From: Escherichia phage HildyBeyeler
Sequence record: MZ501074
Direction: 5' to 3' (one strand)
DNA: 64,000 bases
Shown here: positions 9,973 through 41,549 of the stretch, piece by piece
Layout: the number at the start of each line of letters is the position of its first letter
Numbering within the stretch: the first letter of the stretch is position 1
Notes under the pieces: generated by a model
Seen by the model: only the letters and a program-made list of their open reading frames with translations
Database searches by the model: none
What the model was told of the DNA's origin: nothing
Program-made: the position numbers and the translations under genes

Positions 9973-10115
9973 CTACAATTTTAATTAACTTTGCTTACCC
10001 TCGCCATAACTTTCTATCCCTCAACTGAATGATAATAGTATATACCTAAGCGGCGAAAATGTCAATAACCACTTTATAATTCCGATATGGTAGATGGGTA
10101 GCAAAGGGTTATGTA

Positions 10116-11087
10116 TTAATCGTATACTCGCTCTACTATGCACGGGATTACACCACCAGCACGAATCACTCGAATCTGGCAACCGATCTCTAGATCGAGA
10201 GAGTTAATATAATCAACGTTATTAAGAGTTGCTTTAACAATTGTAGCATCATCAATAATTACCGGTTCAAAATAACCAACTGGAGTTACTTTACCCGAAG
10301 CCCCCACCTGCCATTCAACTTTAGTAAGAGTTGTAATCTCGCCTTCTTCATCCTCTTTAATAGCGAATGCTCCACGAGGGAATTTATTAGTCCAGCCTTC
10401 ACGGAAGAATTTGTTGTTATCATTAATACGAACAACTTTACCGTCCGTCGGAATCCATTTAAAGAAGGAACGCACATTAACAACTGTTAAGAAGTTCTCA
10501 TTCTCCAGCCAAAGCATATCTTTTAAGTATGATTCTGTAATACCTACAGATTCAGCAGAACACTGGATACCATATGCAACGAAGATTAAACCACCTTCCC
10601 CAATGCGTTGTACGAAATCATCACTATCTTTGAGGTTAATAGCACCAGAGGCAAAGTTACGTTTATTTTCTACTTCTTTTGTAATTAGAACTTCACCAGT
10701 TATTTGAGTAGGTACTTTTTGGGAAATCTTTTTAGGAATATTCAGCAATCTTACGTTGCTTGTGACATCATTCCCTAGAATACCGTTACCACGAGTTAGT
10801 GCTTGAACAAATTCGCCGTTAATATACAGCAGAGAAATTGCACAACCATCTAACTTATCGGTTTCCACCTGACCTAAAGGATTGAATGGTGGTTTATCAC
10901 CACGGTTATAGTAAACTTTCTGTAAAGAATACATACGATATAGATGTGGAATATCACCCTTAGGCCCGATCTCTTCCTCTAATGGGAAGCGTTTTACCAG
11001 ACGATCATATTCTTCATCAGAGATTAAAGACATTCCCTGGTAATATGCTTCTTGGCAACGTTTAATAAAGTCTTTTACATTAGTCAT
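10116..11087 (-). CDS. ligA: NAD-dependent DNA ligase, N-terminal adenylation/OB subunit
   Basis: Adenylation motif KLDG (TDKLDGCAISLLY), Ia domain and OB fold; lacks the zinc-finger and BRCT parts. Confidence 0.85.
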   Translation of the reverse strand: MTNVKDFIKRCQEAYYQGMSLISDEEYDRLVKRFPLEEEIGPKGDIPHLYRMYSLQKVYYNRGDKPPFNPLGQVETDKLDGCAISLLYINGEFVQALTRGNGILGNDVTSNVRLLNIPKKISQKVPTQITGEVLITKEVENKRNFASGAINLKDSDDFVQRIGEGGLIFVAYGIQCSAESVGITESYLKDMLWLENENFLTVVNVRSFFKWIPTDGKVVRINDNNKFFREGWTNKFPRGAFAIKEDEEGEITTLTKVEWQVGASGKVTPVGYFEPVIIDDATIVKATLNNVDYINSLDLEIGCQIRVIRAGGVIPCIVERVYD

Positions 11088-11360
11088 TTATTCTGCCTCA
11101 TAGTACGTGGGTTGTCTGGTAGATCCGTGCCACGTATAATTTTTGCAAAGATGCAAATATGTAGTTTTTACTAGCCTATCCGATAATGGAGAGTATATTT
11201 CAGCTATTAATACTTCTTTTTCGTAATAAAGTGAAATCAGTTTATACCCAGCTCTAGTTTTAGTATACTTTTCCCCATTAATCTTTTCCTCCCACATGAG
11301 TATGAGAGGCTGTCCGATATATGGAAAAGGTTTAAGTGTACTTATATGTATCTTTTTCAC
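11088..11360 (-). CDS. hypothetical protein (90 aa)
   Basis: ORF directly downstream of minus-strand promoter 11391-11419. Confidence 0.5.
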   Translation of the reverse strand: MKKIHISTLKPFPYIGQPLILMWEEKINGEKYTKTRAGYKLISLYYEKEVLIAEIYSPLSDRLVKTTYLHLCKNYTWHGSTRQPTYYEAE

Positions 11361-11390
11361 TTTGCAACCCTCTCATTAATTTATATAAAT

Positions 11391-11419
11391 ATTATATAAC
11401 AAAACTGAGTTGAAAGCAA
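11391..11419 (-). promoter_or_regulatory. sigma70 promoter (TTGCTT, 17 bp, TATAAT)
   Basis: Consensus hexamers with downstream TAAATTAATGAGAG box. Confidence 0.65.
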
Positions 11420-11446
11420 ATACATTTATAAAGAAAAAGCCAAGAA

Positions 11447-11755
11447 CTAGGCATTCTTGGCTTTGAGTTCTTCAGCTCGTTTCTGTACTTCATGTAAAAC
11501 CTCAGATTCGCTAAGAATCTGTGTAAACGCATAGAAAAGCTGTGATGTTGTTTCTAGGGTGTAAGGAAAAGAGAAGCCAGATTTCGTTGGAAACCATTCA
11601 TCATTAATATCAAGAAGCCAGTAACGAATACCCATGTATAGATTCCCACGAAATTCAGATACTGTTAATCTTACTTGTTCCCCCTCCCTCTCCCAAAGTA
11701 TGATGGACTGGTCATCAACGTGTCCTTCATAGTTTTGATTTACCTGTTCGCTCAT
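11447..11755 (-). CDS. hypothetical protein (102 aa)
   Basis: ORF track; co-oriented early gene. Confidence 0.5.
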   Translation of the reverse strand: MSEQVNQNYEGHVDDQSIILWEREGEQVRLTVSEFRGNLYMGIRYWLLDINDEWFPTKSGFSFPYTLETTSQLFYAFTQILSESEVLHEVQKRAEELKAKNA

Positions 11756-11805
11756 TTACATATCCCAAATACACAAAAAGCCCCATATAGGGGCTAATTG
11801 TTTTC

Positions 11806-12102
11806 TTATCGGCCTACTGGAGAAGCACGATCTAACTCTGATTGGAGGCTAGTCACACGACGAACTTTCTCAACAGGAATAAAACGGAAGCTATCATTAG
11901 TACGAGAGAAGACAAGGATTTCGTCATCTTTTGGTTGACGGATACGTTCGCGTTTAATACGCTCCGCCAGATATTTATCTTGGGCCGGATCAAATTCCAT
12001 TGTACCCTGAAGATATGTGGTTCCTTTCTGACGAAGTTTCTCGTAATGAAGATAAAACTCACCAAATTTTTCACACTGTGCAATAATTTCAGCTTTAGTC
12101 AT
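11806..12102 (-). CDS. hypothetical protein (98 aa)
   Basis: ORF track; co-oriented early gene. Confidence 0.5.
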   Translation of the reverse strand: MTKAEIIAQCEKFGEFYLHYEKLRQKGTTYLQGTMEFDPAQDKYLAERIKRERIRQPKDDEILVFSRTNDSFRFIPVEKVRRVTSLQSELDRASPVGR

Positions 12103-12138
12103 AGCTATAGTTCCTTTTGTTGGTGGATTTATCTAAAA

Positions 12139-12549
12139 TTATTTAGTGATGGCTCGAATTGCTTCTGCCAGATGAGCAGCCGCTTTACCGGTCAGTTTGT
12201 CGATAATTGCATCATCCAGAAAATCTGGTGCTAAGCCAGCGTCAGAGAATGCTGAGCGAAGGTCAGCATGAGCTTGGGCTTTGGAGGTACGAGAACCACC
12301 AGAGGCTTTTTCTGCAGTAGATGCGCTAGATTTAGAAGCAGAGCCAGCAGCTTTCTTGATATACACACCTGCTTTAGTCAGCTTCATACGAAAACCGTTC
12401 GGAGTTACACCATTTTCCTGGGCAATTTCGCTAACAATTTCCATGCTAACATTCGGACGTTCATCCTCTGGGAATTGCTCCATACGAGCAACGTATTCGG
12501 AAGACATTTTTTCGAACAGTTCATCAGTCCACTGAGTTGGAGTAGTCAT
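12139..12549 (-). CDS. hypothetical protein with one HTH-like repeat (136 aa)
   Basis: Segment EIAQENGVTPNGFRMKLTKAG resembles the repeats of the 8374-9141 protein; downstream of promoter 12608-12636. Confidence 0.5.
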   Translation of the reverse strand: MTTPTQWTDELFEKMSSEYVARMEQFPEDERPNVSMEIVSEIAQENGVTPNGFRMKLTKAGVYIKKAAGSASKSSASTAEKASGGSRTSKAQAHADLRSAFSDAGLAPDFLDDAIIDKLTGKAAAHLAEAIRAITK

Positions 12550-12607
12550 ATTTTATATTTCCTTAATTAAGAATTAAACAGAATAGTTCTTTCAAACTAT
12601 GAGAATA

Positions 12608-12636
12608 TTATATCAAGAATTATAGGATTAAGCAAC
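12608..12636 (-). promoter_or_regulatory. sigma70 promoter (TTGCTT, 17 bp, TATAAT)
   Basis: Consensus hexamers upstream of CDS 12139-12549. Confidence 0.65.
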
Positions 12637-12652
12637 TGAAATTTTTAAGTAG

Positions 12653-12928
12653 TTACTCCACCAGGCCAACAGCGAGCATATCATCAATGCTGGCAACCTC
12701 CCAATCGTCCGCAATAGCTTCGCATACTGTTAATGAAACAACCTCGCTATATGGATAGTTACCGGCTACCCAGGTATGCTGAGTAGCTACATCTGAGTCA
12801 GCATCTAAAGTTAATAACACTAAGCCGTTATTATCGTTATCCCAGCTTCTACGATATAGCGTTTTTACTTCCCCATCTTTAAGTAAATCAGTTAGTCTAC
12901 TCACTACGTTTTCCTTTTTCTTTATCAA
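12653..12928 (-). CDS. hypothetical protein (91 aa)
   Basis: ORF track. Confidence 0.45.
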   Translation of the reverse strand: MIKKKENVVSRLTDLLKDGEVKTLYRRSWDNDNNGLVLLTLDADSDVATQHTWVAGNYPYSEVVSLTVCEAIADDWEVASIDDMLAVGLVE

Positions 12929-13601
12929 GTTTCAAGGCAGCCTTAACAGCTTCGTTAATCAGTGTGATAACTTCTTCCCGGGACCATTTATACCCCAGAG
13001 ATTTTACGTCTACCCCCAGCTTTTCCAGATGCTTTACAGAAGCCAATTCATAATTCATATAATGAACGTTCTGTTGTTTGCCTTCTGATAGAAGCCATAC
13101 ACGGTAGCAACCAACAGGATTATCCATTGCTTTTTTGATTTCACCGATACACTGGTATCCAGGAACCCAAACAAGCTCACCTACCTCAAATTCTTCTGCT
13201 ACAGCATCATCAGGAATAATTGGTGGATTCAATGGATCTACAATATCATTCAAACGAAGCAGAGCACCATATCGTTCCAGAACAGATTTAACCATTGCTA
13301 CAGAGCGGTAATTACGATCGGCAATCTCTTCAAAAGAATCGCCAGATAGATACTGTTCAATAACGTTGGCTAACTCAATACCTTCAATGAGTGTACCACG
13401 TTTCTTTTTCTTCATTTCGGCAACTTGAATCTGGCGGTCTTGCCACTCTTCAATCATCCTTTCCATAGTTGGATTGGATGATACACCGAGCATTTCACAT
13501 GCTGCTTTCTTAGTACCACCGTTCTCCAGATGCTCTATAACTTTTTTAAAGACTTCATCCGGGATTTCATGGATGTGTTTCTTTCTGCGAGAACCAGCCA
13601 T
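12897..13601 (-). CDS. hypothetical HTH-containing protein (234 aa), first gene downstream of the PN25-like promoter
   Basis: GAGAGG RBS then ATG at 13601; HTH-like GTKKAACEMLGVSSNPTMERMIEEW. Confidence 0.6.
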   Translation of the reverse strand: MAGSRRKKHIHEIPDEVFKKVIEHLENGGTKKAACEMLGVSSNPTMERMIEEWQDRQIQVAEMKKKKRGTLIEGIELANVIEQYLSGDSFEEIADRNYRSVAMVKSVLERYGALLRLNDIVDPLNPPIIPDDAVAEEFEVGELVWVPGYQCIGEIKKAMDNPVGCYRVWLLSEGKQQNVHYMNYELASVKHLEKLGVDVKSLGYKWSREEVITLINEAVKAALKLDKEKGKRSE

Positions 13602-13632
13602 ATTTAAACTCCTCTCTCAAATTTATGAATCT

Positions 13633-13661
13633 ATTATACAGAAAAATTTTCCTGAAAGCAA
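13633..13661 (-). promoter_or_regulatory. strong sigma70 promoter matching T5 PN25
   Basis: Minus strand reads TTGCTT, 17 bp, TATAAT, then AGATTCATAAATTTGAGAGAGG; the reverse complement of 13611-13680 matches the PN25 sequence from memory. Confidence 0.85.
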
Positions 13662-13670
13662 ATAAATTTT

Positions 13671-13913
13671 TTATGATTCTTTGAGCAAAGAAGAAAGTTC
13701 AGCATATACTTTATCTAACTCAAACCCTATGCGAAGAGATACGTTAGTCCTCCGTTGTTTAAGTAACCACTCGGATATGTTAGGGATGCCAGCTAGTCTA
13801 GCAGGAACCACCCTACATAGCTTCTCCGAAGTATCATAAACAGGGACTTTACGTTCTTTTACTGGAAACTTCCTTGTTTCCCATTTTTTATTCTTCACTG
13901 TCATTTCTAGCAC
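13671..13913 (-). CDS. hypothetical protein (80 aa)
   Basis: ORF track; overlaps the end of the upstream gene. Confidence 0.45.
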   Translation of the reverse strand: MLEMTVKNKKWETRKFPVKERKVPVYDTSEKLCRVVPARLAGIPNISEWLLKQRRTNVSLRIGFELDKVYAELSSLLKES

Positions 13914-16677
13914 CTAGCTCTGACATTGCTTCTTCTGCCATAGCCTTCTCTTCCTCTGTCATGAATTTGAAAGGAATTGGCATACACTCGATTTTACAAT
14001 AGGTTCTGTACCAGTCTACGATATTCTCCGTGTTCATATCTTTACCAATACCCATCATACCAAGATACATTCTAGCATATTTTGGGTTAGCACTCTGGCC
14101 TGTTTTAAGGAAGAAATCCTTTTTCTTACCTTTTAGAGCTTCTATGAATGGTTTAATGGTTACATTTGAACACTTCTTAATGTCTTCCCAGAACATCTCG
14201 TGCATCTTATGAAAGAATGCAGCTCGATCATTTGGTTTATCTTTGATATATTGTTCAACATGCTCAACTGTTACATCTTTAATAGACTCAAGATGATAAT
14301 AGCGAACAATAAGTAGTTTAGCTTCATACGCATCAGCATGACGTGGAGCACAATAATCCGGAGTTGAATGTAGAATAGCTTTGATTCGCTCTTCTGTGTA
14401 CTCTTTACCAGCACCTTCAATAGTTCCCCAGCTTTCACTGAAAATATCAATAGTTGCACCCTGATCAAGCAAGTAATAACGTAAAGTACTAGTATAGTTC
14501 CTAGATTCCAGCTCCCTGCGACGTGCGTATAATTGCTGTGCTAACTCCAGCCAACCCTCATCAATGTTATACTGTTCAGAACCTGCGGAGAATCCACTCG
14601 TAGATTTATCAATAAAATAATAAATGTTCTGAGCGCCACGGTCGCGCCTGATTGCTTGGAAACGCATGTTTGGCGCTTGATTACTGGTTCTAGTAATAAC
14701 AAATACGTTATCAAAATAGTTGAAGTCAACTCCACTCGTTACGGATGGACTACATAATAAGCAATCAATTTGTTGATCAATTAGCTCATTAGTTGTGTAA
14801 TCCAGAATACGTCTAATATCCACATCTGATGTGGAGTTTGAGTGGATTTCCTTAACTAACGCACCAGTATTACGACGTAGTGCCATGCCCTTCTCATTCA
14901 GCTCATCAGGGCCACAATCAGATACTAGAATAGATTTCTCACCCATCTCTAGAGAAGTCTGAAGTGCAACCCAAATACTGGATTCATCGGGGAACTCATA
15001 AGCGTGAGCTTTTGACAGCATTTTACGGTGATGATTATAAAATGCTACTGGTTTATCGAACTCAATCAAAGAACCATATGCTTCAATTGTTTCAGCACTA
15101 ATATCACCATCGGATAGTATAATGATTTTTGCAGTTGCAAGAATATCACGAAGAACCTGAATACACTCGCGACGTTGCTTAACAACTGGGGCGAATAATA
15201 GGTCATTCATTACTGCATCACATTCATCGATAAAGATTGCATCAATTTGACCAATAAAACTCTTAAACTTATGTAAAGAGTGGATAGTTGTGGACATACG
15301 GTCAATAGCACCACGCTTAAAATTAAGCATATCTACAGACTTATCATATTGTCCTGCACTAAATTTCTTGGCATTTGAAGACACCAGTGCCCTAGTATTG
15401 GTAATTGCTAAGAAATTACCTTTAATAACTCCTGAATCTAACCAACGCACAACTGCCGTGGTTTTACCTGTACCTAGACTTGCTTTTACAAAAGTCATAT
15501 AACCTTCTGGTGGTACAGTGTTTAATTTCAAGAAGTTATCAGTTTCTAGAGAATTAGTTTCTAATTTTTTAAGTGGAACACCTTTTAATACTTCTGGGAT
15601 CTCACGCTTAGAGTTATTAACAAAGGCTTTTAATGCCTGTTTTCGACCGTTATTAAAATAATCTTGAATATTACGACTATTATCTTTAGTTGCAATATAC
15701 TCAGATAAAGCTGGGCGGATCTCCTTCTCTAGCCAACCAAAATCTACACCATCCTCTAACGCTCGGTGATATAGCTTTGGAATAATACGTAGATATACAC
15801 CATCCTCAGCCTCTTCTAACTCGCTAATGGTTTCTTCTACTTTATCAGAAGCAATCTTTTTGCCTTTAATTTGATCGAGTAAAGAGTAGAATTCCTCTTT
15901 AAACTCCCCTCTAGTTGTTTCATAGTCAACCAGATTATTAGGTAAATTTACTTTAGAACCCTTAACAAATACCAGACGTGAAGCACCCTCCGCTTTAAAC
16001 GGATCAACTATACCATCAGTAAATAAAGGATCTGCAAAGTAATGGAGCTGTACGGAAGAGTAATAAGCTAAGTCGGCAATATCAAAGCCATACTTTTGTC
16101 TACTACTTTCATTGATAGATGTAAATAAGAACTTGATCTGACCCTGTGTAACTTTAACATTAGATTCTAGTATTAAGTGCATTCGGATACCTGGTTTTAG
16201 TCCAGCCGAAGACGATGCATGAGCAATAAACCCTGCATCAAGAGGAAACATATCCTCACTAATACTATTCAACATTCTAATAATATGACGCGCCATGCCA
16301 ACAAGATCAAACTTGTTACAACCTCCTGTATCTACAATACCATCCACGTCCATTGCAATTATATGACTTGGGTTAGATACATTAAAGTTGTCCTTCTTAC
16401 GCCGCACATTATTTTTAGGTGCAAGACATCGACCTCGTACCGCAACGATATGGGGGTCAGACGTTAAACGTCTCATAAGAGGGAGCATTTCTACTAGGGT
16501 TTGAGGATCAACTTCATCAATTACATCAAACTTGAAGGGCATTGAAGCTGGTTTACCTTCAGGATGCTTTGAGGAAAATCTTTTAGCAAAAAGATAATCT
16601 TCTGCTTTAACTTCTCGCCAATTGCCCGTGGCTAAATCGCGATGAAATCCTGCATGACCTTGTAGGATTGAGAACAC
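13888..16677 (-). CDS. putative replication origin-binding protein / SF2 helicase (~929 aa), GTG start
   Basis: P-loop FVKASLGTGKTTAV and DEAD-like IFIDECDAV; the track ORF extends to 16875, but an AGGAG RBS supports the GTG at 16677. Confidence 0.65.
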   Translation of the reverse strand: MFSILQGHAGFHRDLATGNWREVKAEDYLFAKRFSSKHPEGKPASMPFKFDVIDEVDPQTLVEMLPLMRRLTSDPHIVAVRGRCLAPKNNVRRKKDNFNVSNPSHIIAMDVDGIVDTGGCNKFDLVGMARHIIRMLNSISEDMFPLDAGFIAHASSSAGLKPGIRMHLILESNVKVTQGQIKFLFTSINESSRQKYGFDIADLAYYSSVQLHYFADPLFTDGIVDPFKAEGASRLVFVKGSKVNLPNNLVDYETTRGEFKEEFYSLLDQIKGKKIASDKVEETISELEEAEDGVYLRIIPKLYHRALEDGVDFGWLEKEIRPALSEYIATKDNSRNIQDYFNNGRKQALKAFVNNSKREIPEVLKGVPLKKLETNSLETDNFLKLNTVPPEGYMTFVKASLGTGKTTAVVRWLDSGVIKGNFLAITNTRALVSSNAKKFSAGQYDKSVDMLNFKRGAIDRMSTTIHSLHKFKSFIGQIDAIFIDECDAVMNDLLFAPVVKQRRECIQVLRDILATAKIIILSDGDISAETIEAYGSLIEFDKPVAFYNHHRKMLSKAHAYEFPDESSIWVALQTSLEMGEKSILVSDCGPDELNEKGMALRRNTGALVKEIHSNSTSDVDIRRILDYTTNELIDQQIDCLLCSPSVTSGVDFNYFDNVFVITRTSNQAPNMRFQAIRRDRGAQNIYYFIDKSTSGFSAGSEQYNIDEGWLELAQQLYARRRELESRNYTSTLRYYLLDQGATIDIFSESWGTIEGAGKEYTEERIKAILHSTPDYCAPRHADAYEAKLLIVRYYHLESIKDVTVEHVEQYIKDKPNDRAAFFHKMHEMFWEDIKKCSNVTIKPFIEALKGKKKDFFLKTGQSANPKYARMYLGMMGIGKDMNTENIVDWYRTYCKIECMPIPFKFMTEEEKAMAEEAMSELGARNDSEE

Positions 16678-17273
16678 AACAATACTCCTGTGTTGGAAAT
16701 GAAATAAGTTTTCTTTAGGACTATTCAGAAAGAATAGAACAACTGTTACTGTCAATTTCTCAACAATTAATCGCAAATACTGAAGTGGGGTGGCAACTTC
16801 CACTTTCACGCTGCGCTGCTGCCTCATTATACCGCACAAATCCTTGAGGATGGCCGCTAAGCCGGATTTGCTCACCTAATGCTTCATATACTAGCTCATA
16901 CTAGATGCAATATAACTTACAGAATCACGTCTCGGTAGTTTTTCACTCCTCCCATCTCACTTCACAACCACCTCATACTAGGTTGCTTCGAGGCCTTACC
17001 AGGGTTCCTATGGGACGCAGATCGCTAAGTATTCTATTAACTATTTGTTTAAAAACTAACACGTAACAGTTAAAACAACCCTTAATGGGGCAGCCTAACT
17101 GTTCCGTATCGCGGATTGTAAACAAGAAAAAACTTTTTCGTAAAGCTCTAGCAACGTACCTTATGCAGCTATTTACGGGTCATCGATTCCTCTCGCCGTA
17201 AATCCATTGTCAGCTTCACTAAGAAAAATTAGCAAAATCAATTTTTACTAATGTCTCTCAATTCAATATAAAT

Positions 17274-17302
17274 ATTATAGCAAGATTTTGAGCATCATGC
17301 AA
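17274..17302 (-). promoter_or_regulatory. sigma70 promoter (TTGCAT, 17 bp, TATAAT)
   Basis: Consensus hexamers with the conserved downstream box TTGAATTGAGAGAC. Confidence 0.6.
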
Positions 17303-17378
17303 GTAAATTTTTAAGGAGAATGCTATCAGTGTCTTTGAGCACAGTGAAAACCGAGCCAAAATGACTCGGTTATGTGGA

Positions 17379-17573
17379 TTAGACACTTAAAATACTTCTA
17401 ATCTCTTCTATATACTTATCTACTTTTTTAGCATCTATTTTACTTAGTTTTCCTATATCAAAATCAGGATCAGTCAAATATCTTGCCATAAATTTTACTT
17501 GTTTAGCTGAAAGTTGACCCTTATTCCACTTTTTAATTTTACCATAACATACCCAATATTCTTTATTCATCAT
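17379..17573 (-). CDS. hypothetical protein (64 aa)
   Basis: ORF track. Confidence 0.4.
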   Translation of the reverse strand: MMNKEYWVCYGKIKKWNKGQLSAKQVKFMARYLTDPDFDIGKLSKIDAKKVDKYIEEIRSILSV

Positions 17574-17955
17574 TTAGTCCCGAAACATAAATCCCAACAC
17601 GGTTTAATTGTTCTTTGGCTTCTTTGAGAATATCTGGAGTGTACTCCCAAATATCATCTTCCACCTGTAAAAGATGGGGCGAACAACCGTCATCGGGCAC
17701 ACGACATATGGCCAAACCACGTGGATGGAACAAAGAGAAATTTAGTGCAACAATTAAACCCATAGCAGACAACTCATTCCAATCCAATTCCCATTCCCTA
17801 GCGTAGCCTGATAGGAAAACACCAATACAGGGATCGTCTATTTGCTGCTCCGGAAAAGTAAAGGAGGCTTGTCTTACCCCCAACCAACGTTGTAGCAGCT
17901 TCTCCGCACGCTTCACCAAACTAGGATCAATCTGACGCCAATATACTTGTTCCAT
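17563..17955 (-). CDS. hypothetical protein (130 aa), paralog of 17965-18393
   Basis: Shares CIG...W.EL...MGL..ALN..LF.P with the neighbouring gene. Confidence 0.55.
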   Translation of the reverse strand: MEQVYWRQIDPSLVKRAEKLLQRWLGVRQASFTFPEQQIDDPCIGVFLSGYAREWELDWNELSAMGLIVALNFSLFHPRGLAICRVPDDGCSPHLLQVEDDIWEYTPDILKEAKEQLNRVGIYVSGLNDE

Positions 17956-17964
17956 TGTGCCACC

Positions 17965-18393
17965 TTAGGCAGTTAAACCAGGAATTTGATAACCAAAACG
18001 ACGAAGTTTCTGGATACCATCATTTACTTCTTCCGGTGAGTAAGACCAACCGTAATGTTCATCAACTTGAAAGCCAGGAGATTCACTGGTTTTATAGTTA
18101 ACAACAATACGGTGTTTATTGGGCATAAATAGCTTATAGTTTAATGCAAAAACCAACCCCATTTCATCCAGCTCTTTCCAGCCGACAATCTCTTCCAGAC
18201 CATCCTCTACCTGCACAACTAGACCAATACACGGGGCCTCATCAATATCATCTTTAAAAGCAAAGGAGATTTCATTATTTTCACACCATATTTTCAAGGA
18301 GTTAATAGTCTCATTATACAGGCTAGCTGGGAGAGTACGCCAGAAGTTAACCAAAATTGGATTAGCTTCTTTAGAGAATACATTATTGAACAT
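17965..18393 (-). CDS. hypothetical protein (142 aa), paralog of 17563-17955
   Basis: Shares a conserved central block with the adjacent gene. Confidence 0.55.
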   Translation of the reverse strand: MFNNVFSKEANPILVNFWRTLPASLYNETINSLKIWCENNEISFAFKDDIDEAPCIGLVVQVEDGLEEIVGWKELDEMGLVFALNYKLFMPNKHRIVVNYKTSESPGFQVDEHYGWSYSPEEVNDGIQKLRRFGYQIPGLTA

Positions 18394-18395
18394 AT

Positions 18396-18902
18396 TTACA
18401 CCTTAAGTTGTTGTAGGGCTTTACACATTTCAAGATCTGGACTAAATTCTAGCATATAGCTAACAGCCATTAAATCTTGAAGGTTTATTCCAGTTCTACC
18501 GTTGACTATAACCGTTGGATACTGGTACATCATAGCACCAGCGTCATCCAGCACACACCAATGTTTGAGCTTATGCTTTTCAACGAAGCGAAGAACAGAA
18601 TTACCCCTAGATAGCCCACCACCAGTAAAATCCGTTGTACCAAGAAAACGATCAATAAGATCTAATCTGGTCATAATCTGAACGTTCTCCATCTCATTCC
18701 TGACAGAGAACCATGAAGATACCCCAACAATCATTATTGGAGAAGGACGAATAAAGTCCTGAAAAGCCTTGAGAAGCGGCTTAAAAACCCAGTCACTTCC
18801 AAAGAAAATCTTTTCATCATCAGGTGCATGATGGTGGGAGATGCTCGAATTAAGCACCCCATCGATGTCTAGAAAAATAATTGGAGTATTACTTATTTCC
18901 AT
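18396..18902 (-). CDS. HAD-superfamily phosphatase-like protein (168 aa)
   Basis: N-terminal HAD motif I IIFLDIDGVL and a downstream VLDD motif. Confidence 0.6.
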   Translation of the reverse strand: MEISNTPIIFLDIDGVLNSSISHHHAPDDEKIFFGSDWVFKPLLKAFQDFIRPSPIMIVGVSSWFSVRNEMENVQIMTRLDLIDRFLGTTDFTGGGLSRGNSVLRFVEKHKLKHWCVLDDAGAMMYQYPTVIVNGRTGINLQDLMAVSYMLEFSPDLEMCKALQQLKV

Positions 18903-19071
18903 TTCTGTTCCTTTCTAAGAACGTATCATACTCAACCGTATCAACATATATGACACCATAGTCATCGGATTTATAGTCCATTTCCCATAGCTCACATCGA
19001 TAGCACCAACTACCATCCGCCCATACAAATATATCATCGGGATGTGTATACACAGATTTAACTATGGACAT
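18889..19071 (-). CDS. hypothetical protein (60 aa)
   Basis: ORF track. Confidence 0.35.
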   Translation of the reverse strand: MSIVKSVYTHPDDIFVWADGSWCYRCELWEMDYKSDDYGVIYVDTVEYDTFLERNRNGNK

Positions 19072-19886
19072 ATTTGTTTTCCCGGCATATAAGGTCTACC
19101 CTCTAGATGAGCTTCTACACGAGCAATAAAACCAGGATCACTGAAAGCATCTACTGCACCTTTACTCCAGTAAGGAATACCACGATCTTCCAGTTGGTAC
19201 ATATCACTACGAGTCATACCTTGATAGCCTGGTTTCGACGCTAGGGCACTATCATAGTAGTTAACTACCATAAGTTTCGCAGCAGTCCGATTAAGAACAG
19301 GGAATAGTTCCCAGTAGAAGTTAATTACTTGGTTAGAGCAACCAACTACAACGATCATATCTTGACTGGTAATACCATCAAAAATATTGTACATTTCTGC
19401 GTACGCTGGAGCATGCTCACCAAAAAAGATTACATTAGGTTTAACCCATTTATAATCATCTGGGTCAATAGAGTTATACCCAACATCAATAACCCGTTTA
19501 TTACTACTATTGTAGCTATCAGCTACAACAACCTCTTTTAAATATCCGTGAATGTGCAGAATATCACTATGTGGAACGCCAGCACGCTCAATAAGGTCAT
19601 CAACGTTGGTAGTCAAGTTTACTACTTGACCCGGATATTTCTTATACCATTCACCAATACGCAAGTGTGCAAGATTAGGTTCAACAGTTTCTAACTCTTC
19701 ACGCCGCTTGTTGTAAAACATATGGGTTTTATGATAAAAGTTACCACGAAAGGCGTGAATATTACATACTTCTTCTAGATCATAATCATCCCACAGTGCT
19801 TTACCACTAGCAGTATCGGTACGAAAAGCTCGTACACCACTTTCAACGCTCAAACCTGCACCGCTAATAATAATTAATCTACGCAC
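19062..19886 (-). CDS. Sir2-family (sirtuin-like) NAD-binding protein (274 aa)
   Basis: GAGLSVESGVRAFR (compare Sir2 GAGIS..SGIP.FR), NVDDLIERAG and catalytic-His context ILHIHGY. Confidence 0.65.
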   Translation of the reverse strand: MRRLIIISGAGLSVESGVRAFRTDTASGKALWDDYDLEEVCNIHAFRGNFYHKTHMFYNKRREELETVEPNLAHLRIGEWYKKYPGQVVNLTTNVDDLIERAGVPHSDILHIHGYLKEVVVADSYNSSNKRVIDVGYNSIDPDDYKWVKPNVIFFGEHAPAYAEMYNIFDGITSQDMIVVVGCSNQVINFYWELFPVLNRTAAKLMVVNYYDSALASKPGYQGMTRSDMYQLEDRGIPYWSKGAVDAFSDPGFIARVEAHLEGRPYMPGKQICP

Positions 19887-20080
19887 TATACGATTCCTCG
19901 CTTAAATCCTTCGATAATATTTCGGAGTAAAATTGCTTCCTCCGGGCGTACCTTCTCTTGCTTAATAAGCATATCCAATCCAGCAATACAACTAGTTACA
20001 CCAGCATTATAACCAGAGTTCCATTGCTCAATGAGCATGTTTTCTAGATTACTTTTTAGATTCTGATTCAAGAAGTCCAT
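19886..20080 (-). CDS. hypothetical protein (64 aa)
   Basis: ORF track. Confidence 0.4.
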   Translation of the reverse strand: MDFLNQNLKSNLENMLIEQWNSGYNAGVTSCIAGLDMLIKQEKVRPEEAILLRNIIEGFKRGIV

Positions 20081-20255
20081 AAAGTTTCTCCTCTAGTCCC
20101 ATAATACGATTTTCATAAGAAGCACGCAACTTTTCAATTGCCAGCGCACGCACTGTAACCTCATTAGAATTAATAGCTAACTGGGCCAGATCTTCTGTTT
20201 CCATACGTCCGTTGTAAATTAAGCGATATTTAAGGTGTTTCACATTCTTGGTCAT
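20049..20255 (-). CDS. hypothetical protein (~68 aa)
   Basis: ORF track, start moved to the internal ATG at 20255, which has a GGAG RBS. Confidence 0.4.
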   Translation of the reverse strand: MTKNVKHLKYRLIYNGRMETEDLAQLAINSNEVTVRALAIEKLRASYENRIMGLEEKLYGLLESESKK

Positions 20256-20628
20256 TATTAAACTCCACTGCAACTGTTTCTAGGTCTTCGTCAAAAAAAC
20301 TAGAGTATGTATCTTTAAGATACTGTTTAATACTCCAAGTAATATCTTCGTATCCATCTGGACTACGTTGGTATACTTTTAACACTCTATTATACACAAA
20401 TTCAAGATTACATTTTACTTCATCTCTGTCTTCATCAAACAAGCAATATGGGTTATATGGCGATACATCTAGATTTGTTTCCACCCAATCACCAATAACG
20501 GTGGGGTATCCAGCACCATCTATATGAGAGTAATCACCTGTGGCAGCAAAGACAGCCTCAGCAATATCATCCACGCCCAGATGGAAATCACCACATGTAG
20601 ATTCAACTATATAGGGCTTTAATTCCAT
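20230..20628 (-). CDS. hypothetical acidic protein (132 aa)
   Basis: ORF downstream of promoter 20657-20685; no radical-SAM CxxxCxxC motif, so not NrdG. Confidence 0.5.
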   Translation of the reverse strand: MELKPYIVESTCGDFHLGVDDIAEAVFAATGDYSHIDGAGYPTVIGDWVETNLDVSPYNPYCLFDEDRDEVKCNLEFVYNRVLKVYQRSPDGYEDITWSIKQYLKDTYSSFFDEDLETVAVEFNNDQECETP

Positions 20629-20656
20629 ATCTTTCTCCTCTCAAATTTATAAATCT

Positions 20657-20685
20657 ATTATACATAAATTTTTAGCTGAAAGCAA
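20657..20685 (-). promoter_or_regulatory. strong sigma70 promoter, PN25-family
   Basis: TTGCTT, 17 bp, TATAAT on the minus strand with ATAAATTTGAGAGGAG downstream box. Confidence 0.75.
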
Positions 20686-20727
20686 ATAAAATAAAAGCCA
20701 GGTCGACTAGCAACCCGGCTGATTAGC

Positions 20728-38385: not shown

Positions 38386-38904
38386 ATGACTGTTGATGAA
38401 CTAACAGAACATCTCTTATCTAGAGGGTTTGATACAGATAAGTATCATTGCTGGTTAAGTCCGGAAGGATGGCTAACAGTCCCGTTGTATGACTTCTCTG
38501 GGATGTTGAGAGGCTATCAGACTTATAATCCTTCTGCTCCAAAAGGTCATGGTAAGTGCCCCTTTGAAGCTAAATATTTTACTTATTCAACTACACAGTG
38601 TGTATGGGGATTAGAAACTCTCAATGGAGATGAAAAAGTAGTATTGATTGCTGAATCTGTATTTAAGGCAGTTGCGTTACATAACGCTGGTTATCCAGCC
38701 CTGGCAATGTTGGGTTCTTCCCCCGGAAAAGCATTGTTAAAGCAATTGAAATTATTACCTTTTAAATTGGTAGCTGTCGGAGATAATGATCCTGCGGGTG
38801 AAAAATTTGCTAGAAAATTAAACGGCTTTGTTTCTCCTGTAGATGTAGATGAGATGTCTACCGAAAACTTGAAAAATTTTCTTGCTATGAAGCTAAATTT
38901 CTAA
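38386..38904 (+). CDS. hypothetical protein, possible Toprim-like domain (172 aa)
   Basis: VVLIAESVFKAVAL...LVAVGDNDPAGEKFARKL; 3' end overlaps promoter 38882-38910. Confidence 0.4.
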   Translation: MTVDELTEHLLSRGFDTDKYHCWLSPEGWLTVPLYDFSGMLRGYQTYNPSAPKGHGKCPFEAKYFTYSTTQCVWGLETLNGDEKVVLIAESVFKAVALHNAGYPALAMLGSSPGKALLKQLKLLPFKLVAVGDNDPAGEKFARKLNGFVSPVDVDEMSTENLKNFLAMKLNF

Positions 38905-39019: not shown

Positions 39020-39097
39020 GGTTCTCAAGCTCATATGGTATGAGCACCCAGCTCATAACTGGAAGGTACGTAGGTTCGAATCCTCGGGGAGCCACCA
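39020..39097 (+). tRNA. tRNA-Met or Ile2 (anticodon CAU), CCA encoded
   Basis: Acceptor GGTTCTC/GGGAGCC with G-U pairs, D-stem GCTC/GAGC, anticodon loop CU-CAU-AA, TTCGAAT T-loop; T-stem imperfect. Confidence 0.6.
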
Positions 39098-39693: not shown

Positions 39694-39861
39694 ATGTATA
39701 GACATCCACCTCCGCCAACACGTCGTTCTAGAGAAGTTATTCTCATGGAATTGACGAAAAACTTCAAGGCAACCCTTGAGGATAGAGACTTAGGTACAGA
39801 TGAAGACGTTGATTTTATCTGTAAACTATTAAAAATGAAACTGGAGAAGCAACATGGCTAA
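39694..39861 (+). CDS. hypothetical small protein (55 aa)
   Basis: AAGGAAATAAG RBS; stop overlaps the next start; below the ORF-track cutoff. Confidence 0.45.
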   Translation: MYRHPPPPTRRSREVILMELTKNFKATLEDRDLGTDEDVDFICKLLKMKLEKQHG

Positions 39862-40060
39862 TCCTGAAATTACCATGCAACGACTCATGACTAAAGGTAT
39901 GATATCCGAGGCAGGCATTGAACAAGAAGTAAAAAGTTATTACGAACAGATTAAGGGTATTATAGACTCTGCTAAAAACACAGGAGAAAAAGAACACGGT
40001 GCAGCAATTATGGCTATAACTCTTATTAGTCTAGACTTGGCAGAAGAATCTGGAGTTTAG
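39854..40060 (+). CDS. hypothetical protein (68 aa)
   Basis: ORF track. Confidence 0.45.
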   Translation: MANPEITMQRLMTKGMISEAGIEQEVKSYYEQIKGIIDSAKNTGEKEHGAAIMAITLISLDLAEESGV

Positions 40061-40090
40061 CTCCTCCAAACAGAATTTTTAAAAATGTAC

Positions 40091-40120
40091 TTGCCTTTTG
40101 CTTTAAATTTCTGGTATAAT
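40091..40120 (+). promoter_or_regulatory. sigma70 promoter (TTGCCT, 18 bp, TATAAT)
   Basis: Hexamers plus AGTTATATAAATTGATGAAGGAG box. Confidence 0.6.
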
Positions 40121-40150
40121 AGTTATATAAATTGATGAAGGAGTTAACGA

Positions 40151-40426
40151 ATGCAAAATCGTGTTATAGCAACTGGTATTGAAAGTGCAATCTGTAAATC
40201 CTGGGAAGGCTGGGAAGGTGAGATTGAATGGCTTTATTTCTACGATGTAGAACTTCTGCCGGAAATTAAAGCTAAATGTGTTGAAGCTGGCATGGCTCCA
40301 GATGCAAAAGCTGATATTGATATTTCAATGTCTGAACTTAAAGGTCGTGTAGTTACCGTTAGTAATGAGGGCGAAGAAGTTTTTGAACTTCCGTTCTCCT
40401 TAGCTGTCACTCCTAAGTTCGACTAA
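40151..40426 (+). CDS. hypothetical protein (91 aa)
   Basis: Promoter 40091-40120 and GAAGGAG RBS. Confidence 0.5.
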   Translation: MQNRVIATGIESAICKSWEGWEGEIEWLYFYDVELLPEIKAKCVEAGMAPDAKADIDISMSELKGRVVTVSNEGEEVFELPFSLAVTPKFD

Positions 40427-40434
40427 CTAATACA

Positions 40435-40473
40435 GCACTGAGCAAGTCCTTTAAAATTTGACTTGCTCAGTGC
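40435..40473 (+). repeat. perfect 14-bp inverted repeat (GCACTGAGCAAGTC / GACTTGCTCAGTGC) with an 11-nt spacer
   Basis: Arms at 40435-48 and 40460-73 are exact reverse complements; the 3' arm contains the -35 of promoter 40463-91. Confidence 0.8.
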
Positions 40474-40491
40474 CTTAAAACTTGGTATAAT
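40463..40491 (+). promoter_or_regulatory. sigma70 promoter (TTGCTC, 17 bp, TATAAT); -35 lies in the 3' arm of a 14-bp palindrome
   Basis: Hexamers at 40463-68 and 40486-91. Confidence 0.6.
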
Positions 40492-40625
40492 AGTTATCTA
40501 ATTTGGAAAGTTCTTTTTAAGGTAGTTCTTACTTTAGCAGAGTAAACTTTCGGCAGATGGTGGCAGCCACTTTACCGATATTCCATAGTCAGTGCCGCAA
40601 ACACTGGCTACCTTAAAGAGAATTT

Positions 40626-40713
40626 GGGCGTTTATTCCGTAAGTGGTAGCGGAGGGGATTGTAAATCCCTGGTCATTGCGACTCGAGTGGTTCGACTCCA
40701 TTAACGCCCACCA
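40626..40713 (+). tRNA. tRNA-Tyr (anticodon GUA), long variable arm, CCA encoded
   Basis: Acceptor GGGCGTT/AACGCCC, anticodon arm GGGGA-UUGUAAA-TCCCT, extra arm, TTCGACT T-loop. Confidence 0.65.
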
Positions 40714-40721
40714 AATTTAAT

Positions 40722-40796
40722 GCACCTATCGTCTAATGGCTAGGACATCAGGATTTCAATCTGAGAATCGGAGTTCAATTCTCCGTGGGTGTACCA
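40722..40796 (+). tRNA. tRNA-Glu (anticodon UUC), CCA encoded
   Basis: Acceptor GCACCTA/TGGGTGT, anticodon arm TCAGG-AUUUCAA-TCTGA, T-arm CGGAG-TTCAATT-CTCCG. Confidence 0.7.
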
Positions 40797-40804
40797 ATTT
40801 CTGC

Positions 40805-40881
40805 ATTCCTAGAGTGTTACTGGACAGCATGTCGGTCTCCAAAACCGTACGGTCTAGGTTCGAGTCCTAGTAGGTTTGCCA
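40805..40881 (+). tRNA. probable tRNA-Trp (anticodon CCA), CCA encoded; 5' boundary uncertain
   Basis: Anticodon arm TCGGT-CUCCAAA-ACCGT, T-arm CTAGG-TTCGAGT-CCTAG, 3' G-CCA; acceptor has U-U mismatches. Confidence 0.5.
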
Positions 40882-40887
40882 AAATTT

Positions 40888-40962
40888 GCACCTTTAGCTG
40901 AGATGGATTAGCGCTTGCCTGAAGAGCTTGAGAGGTTGGATCGTTACCAACGGGGTGCACCA
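40888..40962 (+). tRNA. possible tRNA-Phe (anticodon GAA), CCA encoded; non-canonical T-loop
   Basis: Acceptor GCACCTT/GGGGTGC and D-stem GCTG/TAGC are clean; anticodon stem has two U-U mismatches; T-loop AUCGUUA. Confidence 0.4.
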
Positions 40963-40978
40963 AATTGAAGGAGCTGCT

Positions 40979-41252
40979 GATGCATCCTGAAAACTTCTTT
41001 ATTTACTGCGCGGATAAGTCGCTGAAACGTAGAATTAACAAAGTCTATCATTATCGTGCTAGTCAACAGCCTTATGTATACGCTTTTGACGGTGATCACA
41101 TTCCACTAGAACAATTATCTTGTGATTACATGATATTGAAGAACTTTGACGAGACGAAGATCTCAAGCGTTTATAATCGACAGAATCCATTAACGTGGAA
41201 ATATAAGAAGAAAAAGAAAGGCATCAAATTCTTAAAAAATATAGTTGCTTAG
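40979..41252 (+). CDS. hypothetical protein (~90 aa)
   Basis: GAAGGAG RBS 5 nt before the ATG at 40979; the track ORF starts at an upstream TTG. Confidence 0.45.
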
Positions 41253-41273
41253 TTTCCAAAAGTTCTGTATAAT
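41245..41273 (+). promoter_or_regulatory. sigma70 promoter (TTGCTT, 17 bp, TATAAT)
   Basis: Hexamers plus AATTACATAAATTGAACTGGAG box; precedes tRNA-Cys. Confidence 0.65.
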
Positions 41274-41321
41274 AATTACATAAATTGAACTGGAGAAGCA
41301 ACATGATAGAACAAGATAAAT

Positions 41322-41397
41322 CGACCGTTGGCTGAATGGCTTAGGCGAAGGATTGCAAATCCTTTTTATGTGAGTTCAAATCTCATGCGGTCGTCCA
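41322..41397 (+). tRNA. tRNA-Cys (anticodon GCA), CCA encoded
   Basis: Acceptor CGACCGT/GCGGTCG, anticodon arm AAGGA-UUGCAAA-TCCTT, T-loop TTCAAAT. Confidence 0.75.
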
Positions 41398-41399
41398 AT

Positions 41400-41540
41400 T
41401 TGCTGAAAGAATTGTTAAATCAATTCAGGCACGCGTAGGAACACTGTCTCCGTAATTGAAAGATGAGGCACGGTTTGGAGAGGTATGCCGCTACACGCTA
41501 CGGTGCTAACTCCGTCTAGGTGAAAATCCTAGTCAGCAAT
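41400..41540 (+). ncRNA. candidate structured RNA (141 nt) with tRNA-like termini
   Basis: TTGCTGA at 41400-06 pairs perfectly with TCAGCAA at 41533-39; CTAGG-TGAAAAT-CCTAG hairpin sits just before the 3' strand; D-arm-like GAAT/ATTC near the 5' end; no ORF. Confidence 0.35.
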
Positions 41541-41549
41541 GTAAATTTA

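What the first reader, a model, noticed from the sequence alone, without database searches (positions are those of the whole stretch)
39838..41305. An 18-nt translation-initiation segment is duplicated
AACTGGAGAAGCAACATG occurs at 39839-39856, where it provides the RBS and start of the 68-aa gene, and again at 41288-41305, where the ATG opens only a 10-codon frame that runs into tRNA-Cys. The second copy looks like the remnant 5' end of a gene displaced by the tRNA or an insertion.
Basis: seen in the sequence. Interest (0 to 1): 0.35.

Follow-up and report, generated by a model that had tools for sequence, protein, structure and literature searches.

The report
Deletion scar behind a T5 promoter
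The second copy of the 18-base motif is the leftover ribosome-binding site and start codon of two small phage genes lost in a 380-base deletion; its perfect match to another gene's start comes from a shared short core plus one private silent mutation, so the finding is ordinary.

Summary
AACTGGAGAAGCAACATG occurs exactly twice, at 39839-39856 and 41288-41305, and none is expected by chance. The window is a T5-like phage, 99.8% identical to Salmonella phage Tennessee.

Copy 2 lies at +9 to +26 of the transcript from the orthologue of T5's annotated early promoter P14b. In about 157 related genomes this same promoter, leader and ATG open a conserved 74-aa gene (phrog_8408). An overlapping 63-aa gene (phrog_7042) follows and ends 14 nt inside tRNA-Cys.

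The window carries a 380-bp deletion between two 7-nt AACAAGA repeats. It fuses codons 1-5 of the first gene to the last six codons of the second, which gives the 10-codon ORF. One relative (L018) with the same scar has lost the ATG. Wild-type T5 carries a different deletion at the same microhomology. At least five structural forms exist at this locus, and all keep the promoter and leader.

The 18/18 identity with copy 1 is private to this lineage. Every other relative read at this position (more than 25 fetched loci) has 13-17 of 18 matches, because the window carries a synonymous AAA-to-AAG change in the upstream ORF. There is no flanking homology, the downstream proteins are unrelated, and no recombinants were found. 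"Remnant of a gene" is right. "Duplicated" and "displaced by the tRNA" are not supported.

The parts
39694..39861 (+). 55-aa ORF (T5.074 homologue, phrog_7716). Its last codons, AAA CTG GAG AAG CAA CAT GGC TAA, contain copy 1.
39839..39856 (+). Copy 1 of the 18-mer. It supplies the SD (GGAG 39843-39846) and the ATG of the 68-aa gene, and also codes for the C-terminus of the 55-aa ORF. The G at 39849 is a private synonymous AAA-to-AAG change; relatives have A.
39854..40060 (+). 68-aa ORF (T5.073 homologue, phrog_5153). Its start overlaps the upstream ORF's stop by 8 nt.
40980..41252 (+). 90-aa ORF (T5.071 homologue, phrog_5876). Its 3' end overlaps the promoter.
41225..41299 (+). Orthologue of T5 early promoter P14b, taking the T5 annotation's span of about -55 to +20. 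It has -35 TTGCTT at 41245-41250, a 17-nt spacer, -10 TATAAT at 41268-41273 and an inferred +1 A at 41280. It belongs to the window's family of 18 or more T5-type promoter cassettes.
41280..41302 (+). 5' leader ATAAATTGAACTGGAGAAGCAAC, with SD GGAG at 41292-41295. Its first 20 nt are identical in 29 of the 32 leader sequences read (28 of 30 independent: the window repeats L001/Tennessee and L024/L028 are both T5), whichever gene follows. One carries a single change and two diverge after +18.
41288..41305 (+). Copy 2 of the 18-mer, at +9 to +26 of the P14b transcript. It comprises the leader/SD plus the start codon of the lost 74-aa gene.
41303..41335 (+). Vestigial 10-codon ORF MIEQDKSTVG*. 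It joins codons 1-5 of gene A (phrog_8408) to the last 6 codons and stop of gene B (phrog_7042).
41310..41316 (+). AACAAGA, the single remaining copy of the 7-nt microhomology at the junction of the 380-bp deletion.
   Evidence: in E22/L002 the two copies lie at 2202-2208 and 2582-2588
41322..41397 (+). tRNA-Cys (GCA), with CCA encoded. It is now the first gene downstream of the promoter and starts 42 nt after the inferred +1.

Best explanation
The window comes from a T5-like phage (Tequintavirus). Copy 2 of the 18-mer is the initial transcribed region of the early sigma-70 promoter that T5's annotators call P14b. That region comprises the conserved leader ATAAATTGAACTGGAGAAGC, with its Shine-Dalgarno GGAG, followed by AAC-ATG, the start of a small accessory gene.

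In the intact form of the locus, the promoter drives a 74-aa gene (A) and an overlapping 63-aa zinc-ribbon-like gene (B). The stop codon of B lies 12-14 nt inside tRNA-Cys. In this phage a 380-bp deletion occurred between two 7-nt AACAAGA repeats, one at codons 3-5 of A and one at codons 56-58 of B. It removed both genes and fused the two reading frames in register. What remains is the promoter, the leader, the SD and a 10-codon ORF that still stops inside the tRNA. The likely mechanism is replication slippage or microhomology-mediated illegitimate recombination, which is inferred and not shown. The promoter now effectively serves tRNA-Cys and the genes downstream, with a 42-nt leader that RNase P would remove (inferred). 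The mini-ORF is a scar, not a gene.

The identity with copy 1 does not come from a duplication. The two sites share a 10-nt core, AACTGGAGAA, across the subfamily. This word is over-represented in the window. It is used as an SD context and also encodes Leu-Glu-Lys/Asn at the end of upstream ORFs. Most Tequintaviruses also share CAACATG at both sites, giving 17/18. The 18th match is a private synonymous A-to-G change in the 55-aa ORF of this lineage.
For: Identity of the phage: 99.8% to Salmonella phage Tennessee, with hundreds of Tequintavirus/Epseptimavirus hits.

Promoter: TTGCTT-17-TATAAT followed by ATAAATTGA, a member of a family of 18 or more copies in the window. It is orthologous to the feature annotated "promoter P14b" in NC_005859, which spans up to ...GAACTGGAGAAGC.

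Intact form: E22 and Stitch have the same leader and ATG followed by annotated 74-aa and 63-aa CDSs. 157 of 350 matching records cover at least 80% of the two-gene segment, at 84-100% identity and across two genera. Both genes have their own PHROG families. Both show purifying selection: E22 versus Stitch gives 18 synonymous and 9 nonsynonymous codon changes in A, and 13 and 11 in B.

Deletion: the window matches E22 and Stitch from the left up to AACAAGA and from the right starting at AACAAGA. Exactly 380 bp are missing, and the repeat is present twice in the intact form and once in the window.

The mini-ORF is not constrained. One allele with the same scar (L018) has ATG changed to ATA. Codons 2 and 7 vary nonsynonymously among the scar alleles.

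The locus is prone to such events. At least five forms all keep the promoter and leader. Wild-type T5's T5.070 joins gene A codons 1-5 to the second zinc-ribbon of the long B variant at the same AACAAGA(A) microhomology.

Copy 1 versus copy 2: all 15 IMG/VR loci and all other fetched relatives have A, not G, at position 11 of copy 1. Only Tennessee is 100% identical over the 50-nt copy-1 context among 379 records. Similarity is 16/18 in T5 and about 13-14 of 18 in Epseptimaviruses. There is no flanking homology. The 68-aa and 74-aa proteins are unrelated (E=0.23; different PHROGs). AACTGGAGAA occurs 4 times against 0.14 expected, and 3 of the 4 sit just upstream of a start codon.
Against: An exact 18-mer shared by two translation starts is improbable by pure chance. 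The 17/18 match seen in most Tequintaviruses is also only marginally compatible with chance once it is restricted to real gene starts. An old short-patch recombination or conversion event between the two initiation regions therefore cannot be excluded.

No outgroup outside Tequintavirus/Epseptimavirus carries the 68-aa gene, so the direction of change at copy 1 cannot be polarised.

Scar-bearing alleles occur on at least three different right-flank architectures and are interspersed with other forms in trees of both flanks. Whether the deletion happened once and spread by recombination, or recurred, is therefore open.

Promoter activity, the transcription start and translation of the mini-ORF were not measured here.
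Confidence: 0.82

Rival explanations
1. The two 18-mers are homologous. A short patch containing the ribosome-binding site and start codon was copied from one site to the other, by illegitimate recombination during cassette shuffling or by gene conversion. The window's perfect identity would then reflect recent conversion of copy 1 by copy 2.
For: The match is exact at 18/18 with zero expected by chance. It is the only non-promoter pair among 2.2 million ATG-preceding 15-mer pairs. Most Tequintaviruses have 17/18. Both copies sit in register with a start codon. The private A-to-G change moves copy 1 towards copy 2.
Against: There is no similarity beyond the 18 nt on either side. The downstream proteins are unrelated. 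Similarity falls to the 10-nt SD core in Epseptimaviruses, and that core is itself an over-represented word. The last step is a single synonymous transition, which is indistinguishable from a point mutation. No recombinant that joins the copy 1 left flank to the copy 2 right flank exists among 392 related records.
Confidence: 0.13
2. The short form is ancestral. The 74-aa and 63-aa genes of relatives were inserted between the start codon and the tRNA, and the AACAAGA repeats are a target-site duplication.
For: A 7-nt direct repeat flanks the extra 373 bp in the long form. The short form is the most frequent in the IMG/VR sample, at 10 of 22 loci.
Against: An insertion would have to create two complete, in-frame, selected genes using a pre-existing ATG and a pre-existing stop inside a tRNA. 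The long form spans two genera at 84-100% identity with purifying selection. Forms B and C retain gene B with the same tRNA-overlapping end but different left junctions. T5's T5.070 is a separate fusion at the same repeat. No transposase or endonuclease gene lies in the segment.
Confidence: 0.02
3. The conserved leader and mini-ORF are functional. A short leader peptide, or ribosome loading on the leader, would modulate maturation or stability of the tRNA-Cys precursor. Alternatively, the shared initiation sequence would be an operator for a translational regulator that also controls the 68-aa gene.
For: The leader ATAAATTGAACTGGAGAA is invariant in 31 of 32 sequences read (29 of 30 independent), while the promoter spacer varies. 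Every structural form keeps it, including the one with nothing left to translate. The ORF reaches 14 nt into the tRNA.
Against: The start codon is lost in one scar allele (L018), and codons 2 and 7 change nonsynonymously. The peptide exists only in the deleted form. Leader plus tRNA shows no unusual structure (z=-0.40). Conservation of +1 to +20 is expected for T5 early promoters. This last point rests on my own knowledge that the transcribed region contributes to promoter strength, and was not tested here.
Confidence: 0.03

Closest known systems
Phage T5 early promoter P14b and gene T5.070 (NC_005859, 34759-34833 and 34627-34755)
   Same: The position is orthologous, between the T5.071 homologue and tRNA-Cys. 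The -35, -10 and leader are the same up to GGAGAAGCAA, and the first codons are the same (ATG ACA GAA CAA GA). T5.070 is itself a fusion at the same AACAAGA microhomology.
   Different: T5 retains a 42-aa ORF, namely gene A codons 1-5 joined to the second zinc-ribbon of the long gene B variant, and it stops before the tRNA. The window retains only 10 codons and stops inside the tRNA. T5's leader reads AATATG, giving 16/18 against its own copy 1.
Deletions between short direct repeats in phage genomes (replication slippage or illegitimate recombination, as in T7 and T4 rII deletions and the T5 heat-stable deletion mutants of the tRNA region). Cited from my own knowledge.
   Same: The intact relative has two copies of a 7-nt repeat. 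The deleted form has one copy, and the flanks are colinear. The event lies in the dispensable tRNA/accessory region of a T5-like phage.
   Different: The mechanism is inferred from the junction only. The same junction appears on several flank haplotypes, so the number of events is unknown.
Promoter-early stem-loop (PeSL) regulatory cassettes of T4-type phages, which mediate modular shuffling (Arbiol et al. 2010). Cited from my own knowledge.
   Same: A repeated promoter/leader cassette marks the left boundary of a hyperplastic slot whose gene content differs between relatives. There are at least five forms here, all keeping the cassette.
   Different: No stem-loop is associated with the T5 cassette, and there is no evidence that recombination occurs between cassettes. 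The junctions seen here lie downstream of the SD, at microhomologies inside coding sequence. Copy 1 is not part of a promoter cassette.
Leader peptides and upstream ORFs (attenuator-type)
   Same: A short ORF with a good SD lies in the 5' leader of a structured RNA gene.
   Different: Neither the start codon nor the peptide is conserved. There are no alternative hairpins, and the ORF arose by deletion.

Membership tests
T5-type sigma-70 early promoter (orthologue of P14b) | -35 TTGCTT, 17-nt spacer, -10 TATAAT, an A-rich block upstream, and the conserved start region ATAAATTGA | tested here: met
   Sequence at 41245-41288. Member of repeat families D1/D2 with 18 and 11 copies.
T5-type sigma-70 early promoter (orthologue of P14b) | Orthologous position and sequence relative to the promoter annotated in T5 | tested here: met
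   The feature "promoter P14b" in NC_005859 covers the same sequence between T5.071 and T5.070/tRNA-Cys.
T5-type sigma-70 early promoter (orthologue of P14b) | Transcription initiates there in infected cells | not testable with these tools
   No transcript data are available. The +1 at 41280 is inferred from the T5 annotation span.
Microhomology-mediated deletion scar | Relatives carry an intact, selected sequence at the same site | tested here: met
   Genes A and B in E22, Stitch and about 157 records. Excess of synonymous changes. PHROG families 8408 and 7042.
Microhomology-mediated deletion scar | The short direct repeat is present twice in the intact form and once at the junction, with colinear flanks | tested here: met
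   AACAAGA lies at L002 2202 and 2582, 380 bp apart, and once in the window at 41310-41316.
Duplicated segment (paralogous gene starts) | Homology extends into the flanks, or the downstream genes are paralogues | tested here: not met
   Flank alignments are no better than shuffles. BLASTP E=0.23. The proteins belong to different PHROGs.
Duplicated segment (paralogous gene starts) | The identity is shared by relatives, that is, inherited | tested here: not met
   18/18 only in the window and Tennessee. Elsewhere 17/18, 16/18 or about 13-14 of 18.
Functional leader peptide / regulatory upstream ORF | Start codon and peptide conserved among genomes that carry it | tested here: not met
   L018 has ATA instead of ATG. 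Variants T2I and P7S occur among 13 alleles.
Functional leader peptide / regulatory upstream ORF | Leader RNA has significant or alternative secondary structure | tested here: not met
   Leader plus tRNA-Cys folds with z=-0.40.
tRNA-Cys gene | Cloverleaf with a GCA anticodon, recognised by independent tRNA models | tested here: met
   ARAGORN 41322-41397. Rfam RF00005 at 48.5 bits.

The most novel reading that the evidence does not exclude
The promoter-proximal leader AACTGGAGAAGC(AACATG) may be kept for a purpose beyond translating gene A. It could be a ribosome-loading or operator site that couples translation initiation to processing of the tRNA-Cys precursor. It could also be a common operator through which one regulator controls both this transcript and the 68-aa gene. 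Under that reading the near-identity of the two sites would be selected rather than accidental. The evidence does not exclude this. The leader is nearly invariant across all five structural forms, while the neighbouring promoter spacer varies.
Probability: 0.05. Interest if true: 0.45.

Novelty: new member of a known kind. Interest (0 to 1): 0.15.

Why it matters
The main value is for annotation and bookkeeping. The result explains an odd 10-codon ORF that runs into a tRNA, and it shows that no gene should be called there. It identifies the promoter as the T5 P14b orthologue, which now sits directly in front of tRNA-Cys. It also documents that the slot between P14b and tRNA-Cys is a small hot spot of gene loss in T5-like phages. 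At least five forms exist there, and two separate fusions use the same 7-8-nt microhomology. The accessory genes in this region are currently being examined for anti-defence roles, so knowing which phages have lost phrog_8408 and phrog_7042 could help choose natural knock-outs for comparison. Nothing here challenges current understanding.

Tried and rejected
- Paralogy of the 68-aa gene and the lost 74-aa gene. Rejected: BLASTP E=0.23 and different PHROGs.
- Extended homology around the 18-mer, including the idea that copy 1 is a decayed promoter cassette. Rejected: flank alignments are no better than shuffles, and my first impression of a longer 24-nt match came from a one-base ruler error.
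- Recombination between the two copies, which would delete 1449 bp. A chimeric junction query found no such genome among 392 relatives.
- Pfam gave nothing useful for any of the small ORFs, only a sub-threshold DUF7695 hit for gene B.
- An outgroup to polarise changes at copy 1. The 68-aa gene is confined to Tequintavirus/Epseptimavirus, so none is available.
- The 152-nt tRNA-Cys/tRNA-Asn spacer as a second deletion remnant, of T5.069. Rejected: no alignment.
- Single versus recurrent origin of the scar, from neighbour-joining trees of the flanks. Inconclusive: scar alleles are interspersed with other forms.
- A literature search on microhomology in T5-like tRNA regions found nothing specific.
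Full report
**1. Observation**

The 18-mer AACTGGAGAAGCAACATG occurs exactly at 39839-39856 and 41288-41305 on the + strand. No further match appears even with two mismatches allowed, and none appears in 100 dinucleotide-preserving shuffles. Among 2.2 million pairs of 15-mers that precede an ATG on either strand, only two pairs are identical. One is this pair and the other belongs to the promoter repeat family.

Copy 1 supplies GGAG (39843-39846), a 7-nt spacer and the ATG of the 68-aa ORF 39854-40060. It also encodes the C-terminus (K-L-E-K-Q-H-G-stop) of the 55-aa ORF 39694-39861.

Copy 2's ATG (41303) opens a 10-codon ORF, MIEQDKSTVG, at 41303-41335. Its last 14 nt lie inside tRNA-Cys, which is placed at 41322-41397 by ARAGORN and at 41322-41394 by Rfam with 48.5 bits. 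The repeat is exactly 18 nt, and the 80 nt on either side are no more similar than shuffled sequence (p=0.73 and 0.18).

**2. Where we are**

The segment is 99.8% identical to Salmonella phage Tennessee and matches about 500 T5-like phages of the Demerecviridae, genera Tequintavirus and Epseptimavirus. It lies in the well-known tRNA/accessory-gene region: 21 tRNAs were found in the window. The region is studded with T5-type early promoters, with repeat families of 18, 11 and 12 copies of TTGCT-17-TATAAT-ATAAATTGA.

In the curated T5 record, the neighbouring genes are T5.074 (55 aa), T5.073 (68 aa), T5.072, tRNA-Tyr/Glu/Trp/Phe and T5.071. Then come "promoter P14b", T5.070 and tRNA-Cys.

**3. 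What copy 2 is**

Immediately upstream of copy 2 lie TTGCTT (41245-41250), a 17-nt spacer, TATAAT (41268-41273) and ATAAATTGA. This is the orthologue of T5 P14b. The T5 feature runs through ...ATAAATTGAACTGGAGAAGC, that is, to about +20. Copy 2 therefore occupies +9 to +26 of the inferred transcript. Twelve of its 18 nt belong to what T5's annotators count as the promoter, and the last six (AACATG) are the approach to a start codon.

**4. What that start codon used to start**

In Salmonella phage vB_Sen-E22 the identical promoter, leader and ATG open an annotated 74-aa CDS. An overlapping 63-aa CDS follows. Its last codons...AAA CAA GAT AAA CCG ACC GTT GGC TGA, run into tRNA-Cys exactly as the window's mini-ORF does. 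Stitch, an Epseptimavirus, has the same arrangement with annotated ribosome-binding sites.

Of 350 phage records that match the E22 segment, 157 cover at least 80% of it, at 84-100% identity. The two proteins have their own PHROG families, 8408 and 7042, both of unknown function. Gene B has CxxC-type motifs and a sub-threshold DUF7695 hit. Between E22 and Stitch, synonymous codon changes outnumber nonsynonymous ones: 18 versus 9 in A and 13 versus 11 in B. These are real genes.

**5. The deletion**

Read from the left, the window matches E22 and Stitch up to ...ATG A(C/T)A GAACAAGA. Read from the right, it matches from AACAAGATAAA(C/T)CGACCG... onward. The difference is exactly 380 bp. AACAAGA occurs twice in E22, at L002 2202 and 2582, 380 bp apart, and once in the window at 41310-41316.

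The two repeats are in the same codon phase. The fusion therefore reads codons 1-5 of A followed by the last six codons and the stop of B. This is the classic signature of a deletion between short direct repeats. The mechanism, slippage or illegitimate recombination, is inferred.

The opposite polarity, an insertion with a 7-nt target duplication, is very unlikely. It would have to build two complete, selected genes around a pre-existing ATG and a stop inside a tRNA.

**6. A small hot spot**

Reading 32 leader sequences gave at least five forms, and all of them keep the promoter and ATAAATTGAACTGGAGAA. The 32 come from the window and the fetched loci. The window repeats L001 (Tennessee), and L024 and L028 are both T5, so 30 are independent.

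| Form | Content after the leader | Examples |
|---|---|---|
| A | Gene A + gene B | E22, Stitch |
| B | Gene B only, leader ...GGAGAAGC(T/C)AATG | ESCO40, BF23 fragment, T5_ev219, oselot |
| C | Long 95-aa B variant with a second zinc-ribbon, leader ...GCAAATG | SP01, KookSpook |
| D | The 10-codon scar | window, Tennessee, IrisVonRoten, and 10 of 22 IMG/VR loci |
| E | T5.070, 42 aa | wild-type T5 |

From the evenly spaced listing, form D accounts for roughly a third of the 350 phage records. This is an estimate.

Form E consists of gene A codons 1-5 joined to the second zinc-ribbon of the long B variant, at the same AACAAGA(A) microhomology. The same short repeat has therefore been used in at least two distinct fusions.

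TrudiGerster and phagemcphageface carry yet another B variant behind ...GGAGAACTAGATG.

Form D alleles sit on three different right-flank architectures. They are interspersed with other forms in neighbour-joining trees of both flanks. I cannot say whether the 380-bp deletion happened once and spread by recombination, or recurred.

**7. Is the mini-ORF anything?**

Probably not. One form D allele, L018 (a 120,120-bp IMG/VR contig, the same length as the vB_EcoS_HdH2 record), has ATA in place of the ATG. Codon 2 is ACA or ATA and codon 7 is CCG or TCG among 13 alleles. Leader plus tRNA shows no unusual folding (z=-0.40).

The leader's strong conservation is explained more simply. It is part of the promoter's initial transcribed region and of the SD that served genes A and B. 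From my own knowledge, the +1 to +20 region contributes to the strength of T5 promoters. This was not tested here.

**8. Why copy 1 equals copy 2**

The 18/18 identity is private to this lineage. All 15 IMG/VR loci found with an A/G-degenerate pattern carry A at position 11 of copy 1. So do the other Tequintavirus-type relatives fetched, including T5 itself. Among 379 records that match the 50-nt copy 1 context, only Tennessee is identical. The G is a synonymous AAA-to-AAG (Lys) change in the 55-aa ORF.

Most Tequintaviruses therefore have 17/18, and T5 has 16/18 because its copy 2 reads AATATG. Copy 1 has further changes in DT571/2 (...AACATC ATG), KookSpook (...AAATAA ATG), TrudiGerster (AAATTGGAGAAAAAAC ATG), and Stitch, oselot and phagemcphageface (...AAAACAA ATG). 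In those phages only the core AACTGGAGAA and the ATG are shared.

That 10-mer is itself over-represented, with 4 copies against 0.14 expected. Three of the four lie just upstream of a start codon. At 63626 it again doubles as the end of an upstream ORF (K-L-E-N-K-stop) and the SD of the next gene.

The proteins downstream of the two copies are unrelated. No genome among 392 carries the junction that recombination between the copies would produce.

My reading is as follows. These are two similar initiation regions built on a favoured SD-containing word, and a silent point mutation made them identical in this lineage. An old short-patch exchange between them cannot be excluded, because the 17/18 state is still somewhat unlikely for two real gene starts. 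No outgroup carries the 68-aa gene, so the history cannot be polarised.

**9. Verdict**

Copy 2 is a gene remnant, but the gene was lost by an internal microhomology deletion that left the tRNA untouched. It was not displaced by the tRNA or by an insertion, and there is no evidence that the 18-mer was duplicated.

This is a new example of a familiar kind of event, in a region long known to tolerate deletions. Interest is low. It is useful mainly for annotation and for listing natural knock-outs of phrog_8408 and phrog_7042.

Noticed in passing
window 40497-40625 (+): The 129-nt stretch between the P14a-type promoter (TATAAT 40484-40489) and tRNA-Tyr folds into a long closed multi-branch structure (-39.7 kcal/mol, z=-4.0, 0 of 200 shuffles as stable). 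It matches no Rfam family. It may be one of the T5-type stable RNAs of unknown function.
   Followed up: partly
window 41398-41549 (+): A 152-nt spacer lies between tRNA-Cys and tRNA-Asn. Stitch and KookSpook have only 7 nt here, and T5 has a 516-nt segment with T5.069. The window's spacer shows no similarity to the T5 segment and folds weakly (z=-1.9). This is another variable slot.
   Followed up: partly
window 39020-39094 and 40888-40959 (+): Rfam's tRNA model scores 38.2 and 33.4 bits at two places that ARAGORN did not call. They lie where T5 has tRNA-Ile2(CAU) and tRNA-Phe. The second looks degenerate.
   Followed up: no
L002 2594-2607 (E22), L007 2665-2678 (Stitch); window 41322-41335: In relatives, the 63-aa gene B ends 14 nt inside tRNA-Cys on the same strand, and its stop TGA is tRNA nucleotides 12-14. 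RNase P cleavage would therefore leave that mRNA without a stop codon. The window's mini-ORF inherits this overlap.
   Followed up: partly
L036 (DT571/2) about 2474-2500: DT571/2 has an analogous scar one promoter upstream. The P15c leader ATAAATTGATGAAG is joined directly to the last roughly 50 nt of the T5.072 homologue. The phage also lacks tRNA-Tyr through tRNA-Asn.
   Followed up: partly
window 33691, 39839, 41288, 63626 (+): The 10-mer AACTGGAGAA occurs 4 times against 0.14 expected. At 63626 it is again both the end of an upstream ORF (KLENK*) and the SD of the next gene (ATG 63642).
   Followed up: yes
window 38386-38904 (+): This 172-aa ORF is the homologue of T5.076, annotated as a TOPRIM "DNA primase". 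PMC10644984, citing Azam et al. 2023, reports the same T5 TOPRIM protein (numbered ORF071 in assembly AY587007.1) to be Rad, an inhibitor of retron defence.
   Followed up: no
L004 (T5_ev219) 2189-2206: The leader of the gene-B-only form carries a 9-nt tandem duplication, CTAATGAAA CTAATGAAA, which creates two in-frame ATGs.
   Followed up: no
window 26488-59531 (+) and 782-20690 (-): There are at least 18 copies of the T5-type early promoter cassette on the + strand, and a second set on the - strand in the first 21 kb. Several pairs share near-identical leaders and SDs, for example 47110 and 59018.
   Followed up: no
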